Source: Promethearchaeota archaeon (GTDB taxonomy: Archaea > Asgardarchaeota > Lokiarchaeia > Sigyniarchaeales > SOKP01). Taken from it: a stretch of 64,000 bases of DNA. The DNA lies in the NCBI GenBank assembly GCA_019058245.1, contig JAHPZJ010000025.1, positions 1-64,000 on the forward strand. The letters run 5' to 3'. Of the stretch, positions 41,927-56,809 are shown piece after piece (within the stretch, counting starts at the first letter, position 1; every line of letters begins with the position of its first letter). Position numbers and translations under genes: made by a program. The notes under the pieces are model-generated. The model worked only from the letters and a program-made list of their open reading frames with translations, had not been told where the DNA came from and did no database searches.

Positions 41927-42030
41927 CGGGCTATAGGGGAATTGAACCCCCGACCTTTCTTTTTAAGGGAGAACTTCCCATAAATGTCAGGTTAAAAGCC
42001 TGCTGCGCTACCTGCCTGCGCCAATAGCCC
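41927..42030 (-). tRNA. tRNA-Lys(UUU) with a 30-nt non-canonical intron (~44/45; about 41956-41985)
   Basis: Acceptor GGGCTAT/ATAGCCC-G, D-stem GCGC/GCGC, anticodon arm CAGG-CTTTTAA-CCTG, T-arm GGGGG-TTCAATT-CCCCT; removing 30 nt gives 74 nt. Confidence 0.88.
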
Positions 42031-43249: not shown

Positions 43250-43350
43250 GCCTCTGTGGCTTAGTGGTATAGCAACATTTCATATCATTTCGATAAAAAG
43301 GTTAAAGATTCGTAATCTGTAGATCGGGGGTTCAATTCCCCCCAGAGGCT
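43250..43350 (+). tRNA. tRNA-Thr(CGU) with a 29-nt intron in the anticodon stem (28/29 or 29/30; about 43277-43305)
   Basis: Acceptor GCCTCTG/CAGAGGC-U; splicing restores ACAGA-TTCGTAA-TCTGT; T-arm GGGGG-TTCAATT-CCCCC; mature length 72 nt. Confidence 0.92.
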
Positions 43351-43354
43351 TAAA

Positions 43355-44368
43355 TTATACTTCTTCTGTAAAAACATATCGCTTTATCATTTGCAATGCC
43401 AGCATTTTAAATGCATCATTAATATTTTCTCCTGTTTTAGCAGATGTTTCAATATAGGAAAGATTTAATTTTTCTGCAAGGGATTCTCCTTCATTAGATG
43501 AAACAACACGGTTATCTTCCAAATCTATTTTGTTTCCAACGAGAATAAGTGATATTGATGATGAAGTACTTCTAATTTCTTTAAACCAATTTTCTAAACT
43601 TTCAAATGTATCTTTGCGAGTTACATCATATACTAAAATTCCAGCTTCCGCATTTGAGAGGTAAGTTTGTCTCACACGCTTGAATTGTGCTTGGCCTGCC
43701 AAATCCCAAATAACAAAGCGAACTTTTGATTCTAATCCTTGAAAATCACATTCCTTTTTCATTATAGATGTTCCAATTGTAGATTTGTAGTCAGTTTGAA
43801 ACGAATCTTCAACAAAACGATGAACCATGCTTGTTTTTCCTACTCCTCCTTCACCACCAAGGATGAGTTTAAATGCATATTCTCCTGATTGTACCTTTAT
43901 TTTTTGAAGTGTGTCTAATTTTCTTTCAATATTTTTGGTTTCTTTTTCAGTGACTAATTTTGGTATTACAGGACTCACTGTTCTCCCATCAAATATTCTC
44001 GCAATTTTCTCAGCAGCTAGATAGGCATAAGGAAAAACAGGATCCACCATTGCAACTGATGTTAAGACTGTTACAAAAATCGCTTCGGGTCCAGCTTCGC
44101 AGAAAATGAATCTTTGATCTTCAGTGTCAAAAGTTCCTGTTCCAAAAGAACCTGAACTAAATTCTTCGGTGATTCTAGTTAAAACAGGTTCTACTAAGGC
44201 ACTAACTCCACCTATAACATCTTCCTCTACCTCAGTATCTTCAGCCCCTTTTAAAGCAGACATTACTAAACCTTCTCTATTCACTATAAGAGTAGCGATC
44301 AAATTTTCTCCAATTTCCTGCTTATACCATTTAAGCAATGCTTCAAGTTTTTTTCTATCGACTGACAT
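43355..44368 (-). CDS. Roadblock/LC7 domain fused to a Rab-like GTPase (likely start 44368)
   Basis: N-terminal LIATLIVNREGLV...IFCEAGPEAIFV; C-terminal GEGGVGKT, STIG, WDLAGQ, NKID, ETSAK. Confidence 0.9.
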   Translation of the reverse strand: MSVDRKKLEALLKWYKQEIGENLIATLIVNREGLVMSALKGAEDTEVEEDVIGGVSALVEPVLTRITEEFSSGSFGTGTFDTEDQRFIFCEAGPEAIFVTVLTSVAMVDPVFPYAYLAAEKIARIFDGRTVSPVIPKLVTEKETKNIERKLDTLQKIKVQSGEYAFKLILGGEGGVGKTSMVHRFVEDSFQTDYKSTIGTSIMKKECDFQGLESKVRFVIWDLAGQAQFKRVRQTYLSNAEAGILVYDVTRKDTFESLENWFKEIRSTSSSISLILVGNKIDLEDNRVVSSNEGESLAEKLNLSYIETSAKTGENINDAFKMLALQMIKRYVFTEEV

Positions 44369-44734
44369 GGATTCGATAACCTTTCTTATTTCTATGCAAG
44401 TGTAATACAAAATAACCTAAATATATTTTTATATAATAGGTTTGTTATTAAAATTTATAGAAAAAGATAAGTCTCAAGAAAACACGAATTAAAAGTTCAA
44501 TATGAATTAGGAAATTTAAATCTCTTCTTTTTATAATTAAAATTTTTTTAAGATAAATTTCATTCCAATCTTCTTTCTTATAACGCTATTAAAGACATTG
44601 AATATAATTATATTCCTAAATACTCTTTTTTTTTTAACATACTGAATATTATTCGGTTTAATATCAAAACATTTAAATATTATATCTAATATTATCTAAT
44701 TAGTGAATCTAGTTCGTTTGAAGAGGTTTTAAAT

Positions 44735-44953
44735 ATTTATTTACCCGATATAAAGAATAGCAAAGATGAAGAAGAATCTGTAAAATCTTTCATAGATTTC
44801 AATAAAAAGGATAAAATTTTATATGATAATCTATATATCGGAGTCTTTAAAATAGTTATCAAATTTCCAATAGAAAATAAAGACAAATTTCTAACTCAAA
44901 TTAGAATTGAAAGATTTTCATTAATGAATGATATTTTTTTAACCTCCTATTAA
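44735..44953 (+). CDS. Possible unannotated 72-aa ORF with ATT start
   Basis: Frame open from 44690 to 44953; GAGGT 7 nt before ATT at 44735; TTTAAATA box at ~44672. Confidence 0.4.
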   Translation: MYLPDIKNSKDEEESVKSFIDFNKKDKILYDNLYIGVFKIVIKFPIENKDKFLTQIRIERFSLMNDIFLTSY

Positions 44954-45191
44954 TATTATCATTTTTTCCTTGTTTGAATTATTTCTTAATTTCAACTTGT
45001 ATAATATTCCAGCTGAAAAACAAAAACTTACATATCATTATATCATTATATATTAAATTGATATAATTAGAAAGATTGAATGATACACTCAGGATTTAAA
45101 TGATAGTAAAATTTTAAAATAGTAAAAATTTCTATTTATCAATTAACCTTTCTAATAGAATCATTATAAGAGGGAAATATTAAAGGAACAA

Positions 45192-45398
45192 GCAGGGGTA
45201 GCCAAGATTCTAGAATATATCATCTAGAACTCTACTAGATTGCCTCTATTAGACTAGAATGGAAATTTGGTCTACGGTGCTAGAATATTACGTGATTATA
45301 CGTCTATGGTGAGACTGAGGCTCTAGTGACATAGGTCTTCGTGGGTTCGAAAATCGACGTAAGTTATACGAATTCGATAGAAAATCCCACCTCCTGCA
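45192..45398 (+). tRNA. tRNA-Leu(GAG) with three non-canonical introns: 15/16 (45207-45265), 30/31 (45284-45313), 59/60 (45352-45384)
   Basis: Acceptor GCAGGGG/CTCCTGC-A; removing 59+30+33 nt gives an 85-nt type II cloverleaf with CTAGA-CTGAGGC-TCTAG, variable arm GAC-ATAG-GTC and GTGGG-TTCGAAT-CCCAC; each junction folds as a relaxed BHB. Confidence 0.9.
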
Positions 45399-54831: not shown

Positions 54832-55269
54832 ATGAAAAAATTTGGGTATAGATTCCTTGATCACACTGCTGATGTTTCAGTCGAAAGTTGGGGTACAAGT
54901 TTAGAAGAAGCTTTTGAACAAACTGCATATAGCTTAATGGAAACAATAACTCCAAATTTAAAATTAATATCTCCTGTTAATCACAAAACCATTAAAATTG
55001 AAGCAGAGGATAAAGAAGCTCTACTTTTTGATTTTCTATCAGAATTTCTCTATATATTTGATGTAGAACAGTTAGTTTTTAATGATATAAAAGTCCACAA
55101 AATAGAAAAAGGTCAAAAAAAATTTCAATTAGTCGCAAAAATTAAAGGAGAAATGTTTGATAAAAAAAAACATGAAATAGGTTGTGAGGTAAAGGCTATC
55201 ACTTATTCTTTTATGAATATAGAAGAAAAAAAGGATCAAGTTAAAATTAATATTGTTTTTGATATCTAA
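54832..55269 (+). CDS. Archease
   Basis: FLDHTADV, LEEAF, EVKAITY, VFDI. Confidence 0.96.
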   Translation: MKKFGYRFLDHTADVSVESWGTSLEEAFEQTAYSLMETITPNLKLISPVNHKTIKIEAEDKEALLFDFLSEFLYIFDVEQLVFNDIKVHKIEKGQKKFQLVAKIKGEMFDKKKHEIGCEVKAITYSFMNIEEKKDQVKINIVFDI

Positions 55270-55336: not shown

Positions 55337-56809
55337 TTAACCTTTCACTACACCAATAGGAACAAATCTCACTACTTTTTCAACAATTCCAAGATCATGG
55401 CTAACTTGAACAACTTGATCTATATCCTTATAAGCACCAGGAGCCTCTTCAGCAATAACTTTCATCGCAGCAGCTCGAATTATGATACCTTTTTTGCTTA
55501 AATCCTCTTTAACACGTTCTCCCCAGTACTTCTTTGTTGCTTTTGATCTTGACATTACCCTTCCTGAACCATGAGCTGTCGAACCAAAAGAAAGATCCAT
55601 GGCCTTTGGTTTACCAACACATAAATAAGAAGCAGAACCCATAGTTCCTGGAATTAAAGCTGGCTGTCCTATTGATTTATAATCATTTGGCAAAGCTGGA
55701 TGTTCAGGAGGAAAAGCTCTTGTTGCACCTTTTCTATGAACATTCAATTTCATTTTCTTACCATTTACTTCATGCTCCTCTATTTTTAATATATTATGGC
55801 AAACTCCATAAATTAAATGCATATCTAAATCATCAAAATCCTTTTTAAATGTATTTTGAAAGGATTCTCTTAACCAGTGAGTAATAAGTTGACGATTTGT
55901 GAACCCAAAATTTGCAGCACAACCCATTTGTTTCAAATAATTCTGGGCTTCTGGTGTGTCAGCCGGTACACAAGCTAACTCTCTATCTGGTACCTTAATA
56001 TCATATTTCTTCATCGCTTGTTCGATATTGCGTAATGAATCAGTACACACTTGATGTCCAAGAGCTCTACTCCCTGTATGTACCATAACTGTAATTTGAT
56101 CCTTTCTATTTATACCTAAAGCTTTTGCAATAGTCTCATTGTAAATTTTATCAACTTTCTGAATTTCCAAAAAATGATTCCCACTCCCTAACGATCCTAG
56201 TTGTTTAATAGCTCGCTGTTTTGCTTTTTGGGAAACTAAACTCGCATCAGCATCTTTTAAACATCCATTCTCCTCTAAATGTGTAAGATCCTCTTCAATA
56301 GCATAGTCATTTTCTATTGCCCAATTCACACCATTGTTTAGAACATCATCTAAATCTGAAAAACTTATATTTAGCTTACCTTTTGAACCTAATCCTGAAG
56401 GGATATTGTTAAAAATACTATCCAAGAGAGTTGGCAGCACACCCTTAACATCGCTAAGGGTTAAATTCGATCGAAGCAGACGAACCCCACAATTTATATC
56501 ATATCCTACTCCACCTGGAGAAATCATCCCACTCTCTGCATCTGTCCCTGCAACACCTCCAATACAAAATCCATATCCCTGGTGAGCATCCGAAAGAGCA
56601 ATCGCATGCTTCTCTATCCCTGGTAAACACGCTACATTGCAAATTTGATCTATTGTACGATCTAATCGAATCTTTTCTAATATATATTCATTCGCATAAA
56701 TCTTCACCGGAACCCTCATCTCAAATTTCTCAATTATCCCTTTAGTCCTTGCCATCAACGTCTTTGGAGGAATCTCGTAGATATTGTCTGCTATTTTATT
56801 TACATTCAT
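55337..56809 (-). CDS. rtcB: RNA-splicing ligase RtcB
   Basis: DAHQGYGF, GYDINCGVR, GSGNHF, HRKGATR, HGSGR, YKD; no intein. Confidence 0.97.
   Translation of the reverse strand: MNVNKIADNIYEIPPKTLMARTKGIIEKFEMRVPVKIYANEYILEKIRLDRTIDQICNVACLPGIEKHAIALSDAHQGYGFCIGGVAGTDAESGMISPGGVGYDINCGVRLLRSNLTLSDVKGVLPTLLDSIFNNIPSGLGSKGKLNISFSDLDDVLNNGVNWAIENDYAIEEDLTHLEENGCLKDADASLVSQKAKQRAIKQLGSLGSGNHFLEIQKVDKIYNETIAKALGINRKDQITVMVHTGSRALGHQVCTDSLRNIEQAMKKYDIKVPDRELACVPADTPEAQNYLKQMGCAANFGFTNRQLITHWLRESFQNTFKKDFDDLDMHLIYGVCHNILKIEEHEVNGKKMKLNVHRKGATRAFPPEHPALPNDYKSIGQPALIPGTMGSASYLCVGKPKAMDLSFGSTAHGSGRVMSRSKATKKYWGERVKEDLSKKGIIIRAAAMKVIAEEAPGAYKDIDQVVQVSHDLGIVEKVVRFVPIGVVKG

What the first reader, a model, noticed from the sequence alone, without database searches (positions are those of the whole stretch)
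45192..45398. tRNA-Leu(GAG) split into four exons by three non-canonical introns
Seen: 122 of 207 nt are intron. Removing 45207-45265 (D-loop, 15/16), 45284-45313 (anticodon stem, 30/31) and 45352-45384 (T-loop, 59/60) gives an 85-nt type II Leu cloverleaf. Each junction folds as a bulge-helix-bulge: central helices GCCA/TGGA, TGCT/GGTG and TTCG/AGAA, closed by intron stems TTCTAG/CTAGAA, ATA/TAT and ATCGA/TCGAT. Known: multi-intron tRNAs occur in Thermoproteales and need broad-specificity splicing endonucleases. Inference: this Asgard-like archaeon has an equally permissive splicing system, and standard scanners may miss this gene.
Basis: partly seen in the sequence, partly recalled or inferred. 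Interest (0 to 1): 0.85.

Follow-up and report, generated by a model that had tools for sequence, protein, structure and literature searches.

The report
Intron-within-intron in Asgard leucine tRNA
This Asgard archaeon's only leucine(GAG) tRNA gene found is real and probably has four introns rather than three, one sitting inside another, and its front end seems to have spread between species together with a selfish DNA-cutting gene, which suggests one way such introns arrive.

Summary
Confirmed: removing the three insertions gives an 85-nt tRNA-Leu(GAG), the only one found in this Promethearchaeota (Loki) genome. Orthologs lack each insertion at exactly these joins. Multi-intron Asgard tRNAs and their permissive EndA are already published, so that part is not new.

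Two additions. (1) The 59-nt D-loop 'intron' is very probably a 30-nt BHB intron (45230-45259) nested in a 29-nt one. Two relatives carry the outer intron alone, one identical to the outer part of a nested allele. One-step excision is not excluded. (2) Promoter, exon 1 and the nested intron form a block that is patchy on both flanking-gene trees. In relatives it lies beside an intact or decayed gene whose nuclease domain best resembles the homing endonuclease I-Bth0305I (Z 8.6, borderline); that gene is absent from this assembly. Collaborative homing is the likely driver (about 55%), untested.

No splicing or cutting was shown. The scan noted the 29+30 split, and nuclease-beside-intron layouts with other nucleases, on other genomes.

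The parts
45022..45191 (+). Upstream block (presumed promoter region) shared by nearly all nested-intron alleles; in relatives it lies between the tRNA and a divergent putative homing-endonuclease gene
   Evidence: 87% over 171 nt to L223 and 81% over 163 nt to L217; a 26-nt motif at 45093-45118 occurs in 10 of 135 family genomes, all 10 with the nested allele
45192..45206 (+). Exon 1 (tRNA positions 1-15), G6/A9 variant that mostly travels with the nested intron
45207..45229 (+). Outer D-loop intron (15/16), 5' part, 23 nt; stem strands 45208-45214 and 45223-45229
   Evidence: outer-only alleles L078 and L079; the 3' strand is 99% conserved against 74% for the loop in 17 nested alleles
45230..45259 (+). 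Inner (nested) 30-nt BHB intron: central helix CTAG 45224-45227 with CTAG 45254-45257, two 3-nt bulges, own hairpin
   Evidence: only internal interval with 4/4 central pairs and a closing stem; 59 of 60 central-helix cells paired in 15 alleles; absent from L078 and L079
45260..45265 (+). Outer D-loop intron, 3' part (6 nt; TGGA pairs with exon GCCA, 3 of 4)
45266..45283 (+). Exon 2 (positions 16-30)
45284..45313 (+). 30-nt intron at 30/31, hBHBh' with a G-U-rich central helix; the commonest intron of this gene in the genus
   Evidence: 16 of 65 alleles lack it
45314..45351 (+). Exon 3 (positions 31-59), anticodon GAG at 45317-45319, variable arm
45352..45384 (+). 33-nt intron at 59/60 (T-loop), central helix 3 of 4, flanked by the T-stem
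   Evidence: 39 of 65 alleles lack it
45385..45398 (+). Exon 4 (positions 60-73, discriminator A73; CCA not encoded)
54832..55269 (+). Probable archease (RtcB activator)
   Evidence: ORF; named from its N-terminal motif by my own knowledge, not by a profile search
55337..56809 (-). RtcB RNA ligase, the likely exon-joining enzyme
   Evidence: PF01139, E 4.6e-170; ORF limits

Best explanation
An essential tRNA-Leu(GAG) gene of a Lokiarchaeia-type archaeon. Its 207-nt precursor is matured by a two-subunit EndA with relaxed specificity, and RtcB joins the pieces (inferred from gene content and established biochemistry; about 95%). It holds four ~30-nt BHB introns. The inner D-loop intron (45230-45259) is cut at a perfect central helix. 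Ligation then rebuilds the 7-bp stem of the 29-nt outer intron, which is cut next; the 30/31 and 59/60 introns are removed independently (nested origin about 85%, two-step route used in vivo about 70%). The gene is a mosaic: promoter, exon 1 and the nested intron entered as a block that replaced the resident 5' end (about 85%). The likely driver is a free-standing Vsr/EDxHD-like nuclease gene that lies divergently upstream in relatives. It would cut intron-less D-arm alleles, be copied in together with the intron that destroys its site, and later decay, as it has here (collaborative homing; about 55%, entirely inferred).
For: Shown: spliced product and joins. Outer-only alleles L078 and L079; the outer intron of L079 is identical to that of nested L075. 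Inner central helix paired in 59 of 60 cells. The strand that has no job under one-step excision is 99% conserved against 74% for the adjacent loop. Shuffles: 1 of 5000 (whole insert) and 457 of 20000 (outer ends fixed). EndA alpha has Y138/H146/K177 and loop K55 aligned to A. pernix K44 (role of K44 in PMC5829648); the beta paralog lacks the His; RtcB is in the window. Lateral block: nested alleles need 6 changes on the Rab-like gene tree, 5 forced by supported branches, and are scattered on the DP2 tree. Upstream 100 nt are 0.80 identical among nested alleles, 0.61 to plain ones. G066 holds both alleles; G023 keeps a displaced old 5' half. ORF remnants lie upstream in six nested genomes, and an intact ORF beside a nested allele in L217. 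The family's best structural match is I-Bth0305I (Z 8.6, rmsd 3.0, 98 of 98 residues) and Vsr scores Z 7.9; D, E, D, H, H, D are invariant in 22 homologs. 14 of the 16 best full-length family loci have a tRNA within about 1.5 kb, against none of 14 weaker ones. The neighbouring Leu, Lys, Asp, His and Gly tRNAs carry 15/16 introns.
Against: No RNA or enzyme data. One-step excision of all 59 nt is also structurally possible (87 of 90 cells paired). In the isolated fragment the competing outer hairpin dominates (P 0.96) and neither BHB is favoured. No compensatory double change occurs in the nested helices, and a strain variant at 45225 and allele L217 each break one inner central pair. For homing: Z 8.6 is borderline and tied with a RAP domain (8.5), and Foldseek gave no hit below E 0.001. 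The outer-only alleles and G130 lack the shared upstream block, and G130 and this genome have no match to the ORF. Some family members sit by Val or Gln tRNAs without a D-arm intron. The displaced half in G023 looks like integration rather than clean gene conversion.
Confidence: 0.7

Rival explanations
1. Three introns: the 59-nt insert is excised in one step, and the inner 30 nt is an old insertion or duplication between the two CTAGAA direct repeats that is not spliced on its own.
For: The one-step BHB forms (6-bp closing stem), is conserved (87 of 90 cells) and is about 2 kcal/mol more stable than the inner BHB. Allele L067 weakens the two-step outer stem. The 6-nt direct repeat allows exact gain or loss by slippage.
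Against: It does not explain the 99% conservation of strand 45223-45229, which would be loop and would compete with the one-step fold. It does not explain the exact 4-bp/3-nt geometry or the 30-nt length typical of introns in this genome. L050 and L074 break the first one-step pair but keep the inner BHB.
Confidence: 0.2
2. The 5' block arrived by site-specific integration of a plasmid or virus whose attachment site carries the tRNA 5' half (Caldiarchaeum model, PMC3293823); the nuclease gene is a passenger.
For: G023 has a displaced host 5' half ending at the anticodon loop; the G066 contigs break at the duplicated segment. L203 and L211 also show displaced tRNA pieces.
Against: L217 and L218 show the ORF between ordinary chromosomal genes with no integrase called. 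The same ORF family recurs at several unrelated tRNAs. No viral contig carries the block.
Confidence: 0.25
3. No lateral spread: the nested block is ancestral in the genus and was lost many times.
For: Nested alleles occur in several deep branches, and precise intron loss does occur (L026 lacks the outer intron that its sister L078 has).
Against: It needs far more losses than gains (about 20 against about 9, counted by eye on the tree), each also reverting exon bases 6 and 9 and the upstream sequence. Nested upstream regions of distant genomes are up to 0.91 identical, while the two alleles inside one bin are 0.65 identical.
Confidence: 0.1
4. A pseudogene or chance cloverleaf that is never spliced.
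For: No RNA evidence; the assembly is 76% complete.
Against: Exons are nearly invariant while intron loops drift across 65 alleles. It is the only Leu(GAG) found, and CUU plus CUC make up about 18,600 of 780,000 codons in long ORFs.
Confidence: 0.02

Closest known systems
Multi-intron tRNA genes of Asgard archaea (Valentin-Alvarado 2024, PMC11291895; Goswami 2026, bioRxiv 10.64898/2026.10.13.758758)
   Same: Several short non-canonical BHB introns per gene, D-arm introns missed by scanners, two-paralog EndA, frequent recent gain and loss.
   Different: Their focal families are Freyr-, Jordi- and Atabeyarchaeaceae; the preprint's main text has no occurrence of 'Loki', 'Promethe' or 'nested'. 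It found no general route of arrival, whereas a lateral block with a nuclease gene is seen here.
Multi-intron and nested pre-tRNAs of Thermoproteales (Sugahara 2007; Tocchini-Valentini 2009; as cited in PMC3978253, PMC3728597, PMC4033280)
   Same: Non-canonical positions, relaxed motifs, ordered splicing in which one BHB forms only after another intron is removed.
   Different: Maximum three introns there (PMC4033280), four here. Natural alleles with none, outer only and outer plus inner exist here. I could not read the two primary papers, so whether their 'nested' means a literal intron inside an intron is unverified; from memory the 2009 abstract says nested one inside the other.
Collaborative homing by free-standing endonucleases in phages (described in PMC10448857; T4 SegB in the tRNA region, PMC2988022)
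   Same: A nuclease gene beside, not inside, the intron; the intron and flanking markers move with it; decayed copies are common.
   Different: An archaeal chromosome, protein-spliced BHB micro-introns in tRNA rather than group I introns; cleavage not demonstrated here.
EDxHD homing endonucleases, I-Bth0305I (PMC3239194)
   Same: N-terminal helix-turn-helix-like DNA-binding region plus C-terminal Vsr-like nuclease fold; free-standing members are known.
   Different: No sequence-level match, 14% identity in the structural overlap, an added treble-clef zinc finger, and tRNA-associated.
Caldiarchaeum tRNA-Thr(GGU) intron gain by an integrated element (Sugahara 2012, PMC3293823)
   Same: A displaced 5' tRNA fragment upstream and a reconstituted gene with an extra D-arm intron.
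   Different: That insert encodes a putative recombinase and was one population; here the associated gene is nuclease-like and the block recurs across a genus.

Membership tests
Archaeal type II tRNA-Leu | Cloverleaf with variable arm, Leu anticodon, A73, G15:C48 after splicing | tested here: met
Archaeal type II tRNA-Leu | Expressed, matured and aminoacylated | not testable with these tools
   needs tRNA-seq or a charging assay
Archaeal BHB tRNA intron (strict hBHBh') | 4-bp central helix, two 3-nt bulges, flanking helices | tested here: met
   Met for 30/31 (4/4 with G-U, h 3, h' 3) and for the inner intron (4/4 Watson-Crick, h' 4, h only 1)
Archaeal BHB tRNA intron (strict hBHBh') | All four central pairs for the outer 15/16 and the 59/60 introns | tested here: not met
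   3 of 4 pairs each, so these are relaxed motifs; some orthologs reach 4/4 (L078, L205)
Archaeal BHB tRNA intron | Orthologs without the insert, joined at the predicted splice point | tested here: met
Archaeal BHB tRNA intron | Cleavage by EndA and ligation by RtcB | not testable with these tools
   enzymes are present; activity untested
Nested intron (intron within intron) | Outer intron exists alone as a valid intron and the inner has its own splice motif | tested here: met
   L078 and L079 against L075 and L077
Nested intron (intron within intron) | Inner-first splicing is obligatory | tested here: inconclusive
   one-step fold also possible and conserved
Broad-specificity (alpha-beta)2 EndA | Catalytic and structural paralogs; L1/CSL loop with lysine; Y-H-K triad | tested here: met
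   alignment to A. pernix 3p1z: K55, Y138, H146, K177; paralog lacks His; triad numbering from my own knowledge; oligomer not tested
EDxHD homing endonuclease (ORF in relatives) | Vsr-like catalytic fold behind a DNA-binding N-terminus | tested here: inconclusive
   best match 3r3p Z 8.6, tied with a RAP domain at 8.5; Vsr 7.9; HTH and zinc-finger hints; no Foldseek or HMM hit
EDxHD homing endonuclease (ORF in relatives) | Conserved acidic and histidine catalytic residues | tested here: inconclusive
   D, E, D, H, H, D invariant in 22 homologs; not mapped residue by residue onto E170/D196/H213/D222
Collaborative homing | Nuclease gene and intron co-inherited against the species tree, with co-conversion of flanks | tested here: met
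Collaborative homing | Nuclease cuts the intron-less allele and spares the intron-bearing one | not testable with these tools
   needs a cleavage assay

The most novel reading that the evidence does not exclude
A Lokiarchaeia family of free-standing Vsr/EDxHD-like homing endonucleases targets tRNA D-arms and spreads BHB micro-introns, including an obligately two-step intron-within-intron, between species by collaborative homing. This would be a concrete route for Asgard tRNA intron arrival, which current literature calls open.
Probability: 0.45. Interest if true: 0.82.

Novelty: new variant of a known kind. Interest (0 to 1): 0.6.

Why it matters
The multi-intron tRNA itself is ordinary for Asgard archaea. 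What matters is what the allele series shows. First, EndA-type introns appear to land inside other introns, so even homology-based censuses undercount them, and an allele series (none, outer only, nested) gives ready substrates for testing ordered splicing. Second, the October 2026 census of Asgard tRNA introns states that how introns arrive remains open and found no enrichment of mobile elements. Here an intron-bearing 5' block moves between species beside a nuclease-like gene that then decays, which would leave few hallmark genes to detect. That makes one arrival route testable with a single cleavage assay.

Tried and rejected
No RNA holder listed for the locus, so expression was not examined. 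Viral-contig scans: 23 hits to the exon-1 pattern were chance matches in unrelated sequence, and the upstream motif had none. No match to the nuclease family in this 76%-complete assembly. Pfam, PHROGs, PDB-sequence and Foldseek searches gave no confident family for the ORF. The idea that the inner intron is a self-copy of the outer is weak (P 0.022 against shuffles, one of six comparisons). Gene conversion between the 14/15 and 30/31 introns within a genome is not supported overall (22.2 against 21.8 of 30 identical). A second 59-nt 15/16 insert in another genus (L203) gave no clear nested split. A possible nested 30-in-22 intron in this genome's Leu(UAA) is unresolved: no outer-only allele in 20 distinct ortholog inserts. 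My automatic BHB ranking across the genome was too noisy to place introns. The trees are quick IQ-TREE runs on single flanking genes; the careful DP2 search did not finish. Sugahara 2007 and Tocchini-Valentini 2009 are not held.

Full report
Observation. Joining 45192-45206, 45266-45283, 45314-45351 and 45385-45398 gives 85 nt that ARAGORN calls tRNA-Leu(gag). ARAGORN and Rfam miss the unspliced gene. Contigs from runs X2 and X6 match it without difference, though X2 may be the source sample. The gene lies between a Roadblock/Rab-like GTPase gene and the PolD large subunit DP2. Relatives with the same 5' end are mostly labelled Promethearchaeota. No second Leu(GAG) was found in the 76%-complete assembly by exon or anticodon-arm searches, and CUU and CUC codons are common. 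About 23 of the 30 tRNA genes I found in the genome carry inserts, mostly near 30 nt.

The joins are validated by relatives. I recovered 65 distinct alleles from the genus, family and metagenomes. Exons are nearly invariant. 48 alleles are uninterrupted at 15/16, 16 at 30/31 and 39 at 59/60. Further intron sites occur at about 14/15, 21/22, 32/33 and in the variable arm. The motifs are relaxed: 3 of 4 central pairs at 15/16 and 59/60, and 4 of 4 with three G-U pairs at 30/31. The machinery is present. One EndA paralog has the catalytic Y/H/K residues and a loop lysine aligned to K44 of Aeropyrum pernix, the residue tied to broad specificity in PMC5829648. The second paralog lacks the histidine. 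RtcB and a probable archease are in the window. Splicing itself is inferred, not shown.

The 59-nt insert is probably two introns. It is twice the usual size. Inside it, 45230-45259 is the only interval with a full BHB: a central CTAG/CTAG helix, two 3-nt bulges and its own hairpin. Removing it leaves a 29-nt intron with a 7-bp closing stem. Both conditions together arose in 1 of 5000 shuffles of the insert and in 457 of 20000 when the outer ends were fixed, so the single sequence alone is only modest evidence. The comparative evidence is stronger. L078 and L079 carry just the 29-nt outer intron, and the outer part of nested L075 is identical to the intron of L079. In 17 nested alleles the strand 45223-45229 is 99% conserved against 74% for the loop beside it. 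That strand is needed for both steps of the nested route and has no role in one-step excision. The inner central helix is paired in 59 of 60 cells.

Against the nested route: one-step excision is also possible and conserved (87 of 90 cells), there are no compensatory double changes, and in the isolated fragment the outer hairpin outcompetes both BHB folds. I put the nested origin at about 85% and in vivo two-step splicing at about 70%.

The 5' end is a mobile block. Nested alleles are scattered over the DP2 tree and need six changes on the tree of the upstream Rab-like gene, five forced by supported branches. The two trees broadly agree with each other. Nested alleles share an upstream region (mean identity 0.80 among themselves, 0.61 to plain alleles). 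A 26-nt motif from it occurs in 10 of 135 family genomes, all with the nested allele; nested G130 lacks it and G021 has Ns there. Most nested alleles also share exon bases G6 and A9, while the 3' introns follow the host lineage. G066 contains both alleles, and G023 keeps a decayed, displaced copy of the old 5' half about 400 nt upstream.

A nuclease-like gene travels with the block. Six nested genomes have truncated remnants of one divergent ORF upstream. It is intact (338 aa) in L217 beside an allele with the same intron positions as ours and split in L223. Related ORFs lie beside Leu(GAG) genes with other 15/16 introns in L218, L205 and L203. A confident model (pLDDT 82.8) matches the catalytic domain of homing endonuclease I-Bth0305I best (Z 8.6, 98 of 98 residues), tied with a RAP domain, with Vsr next. 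This is borderline, and Foldseek found nothing significant. Six acidic or histidine residues are invariant, and the nearest Atlas clusters are phage DUF723/DUF4379/DUF559 proteins. Fourteen of the 16 best full-length family loci have a tRNA within about 1.5 kb, against none of 14 weaker hits; several are close kin, so these are not independent. The neighbouring Leu, Lys, Asp, His and Gly tRNAs have 15/16 introns, while some Val and Gln neighbours do not. In this window only the upstream block 45022-45191 remains.

Mechanism of spread. The best reading is collaborative homing as defined in PMC10448857. The nuclease cuts an intron-less D-arm, repair copies in the nuclease gene, promoter, exon 1 and intron, the intron protects the new allele, and the gene later decays. 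Co-inheritance is shown; cutting is not (about 55%). The main rival is integration of an element carrying the tRNA 5' half, as proposed for Caldiarchaeum (PMC3293823), which fits G023. No integrase or viral carrier was seen. The outer-only alleles lack the block, so the intron's first origin is not explained.

Known and new. Heavily interrupted Asgard tRNAs are published: 92-95% of genes in three genomes (PMC11291895), and a mean of 2.2 and up to five insertions per gene in a 2026 preprint that leaves the route of arrival open. Ordered 'nested' splicing is cited for Thermoproteales. I found no paper on an intron-in-intron allele series or on nuclease-linked tRNA intron spread in Asgard archaea, within a library that lacks most subscription journals. 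Unchecked notes of this scan mention the 29+30 split on a look-alike genome, and LAGLIDADG or other nucleases beside introns elsewhere. I reached both ideas before reading them, and they are not independent support.

Verdict. A real gene of a known kind, with a probable nested intron and a laterally spread, nuclease-associated 5' block: a new variant of a known kind, interest 0.6.

Noticed in passing
window 43250-43350 (+): tRNA-Thr(CGU) with a 29-nt intron at 28/29 (43277-43305); ARAGORN miscalls it as Ile(GAU) or Ser(CGA).
   Followed up: partly
window 41927-42030 (-): tRNA-Lys(UUU) with a 30-nt insert at about 44/45 (41956-41985); its central helix has only 2 of 4 pairs by eye.
   Followed up: partly
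G000 C14:85042-85246 (-): 205-nt tRNA gene that reads as Ile(UAU) with four inserts (D-arm, 37/38, variable region, T-loop). A UAU anticodon is unusual in archaea (own knowledge).
   Followed up: no
G000 C20:~96512-96689 (-); L255-L284: tRNA-Leu(UAA) has a 52-nt D-arm insert that could be a 30-nt intron nested in a 22-nt one. Orthologs have 30-36 or 51-53 nt inserts with a shared 3' end; no outer-only allele was seen.
   Followed up: partly
window 45284-45313 and 45352-45384: The 30/31 and 59/60 introns of this gene resemble each other (P 0.0013 against shuffles), a hint of copying within the gene.
   Followed up: partly
L091-L102: One clade has a 30-nt intron at 14/15 that is homologous to the 30/31 intron of the same gene (about 22 of 30 identical; 27-28 in L100 and L101): an intron copied within one tRNA gene.
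   Followed up: partly
L059 (G058) against L066 (G064): Arrival of the nested block coincides with absence of the ~21/22 intron of the sister lineage, so co-conversion may also remove introns.
   Followed up: no
L203, L211, L212: Nuclease-family genes beside an intact tRNA (Leu, Lys) plus a decayed, displaced 3' copy of the same tRNA.
   Followed up: partly
window 44600-45020: AT-rich stretch shared with G052 (82% over the whole intergenic region), where it holds a 67-aa ORF fragment; unrelated to the nuclease family.
   Followed up: no
window 43355-44410 (-): Roadblock-like domain fused to a Rab-like GTPase, conserved next to the tRNA across the genus.
   Followed up: no
L112 (G048 C51): A degenerate second Leu(GAG)-like copy with anticodon changed to AAG and a damaged 5' end; probable pseudogene.
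   Followed up: no
G000 C13:364515-364598 (-): 84-nt tRNA with GCA anticodon, long variable arm and an unusual T-loop; called Cys by ARAGORN but not typical.
   Followed up: no
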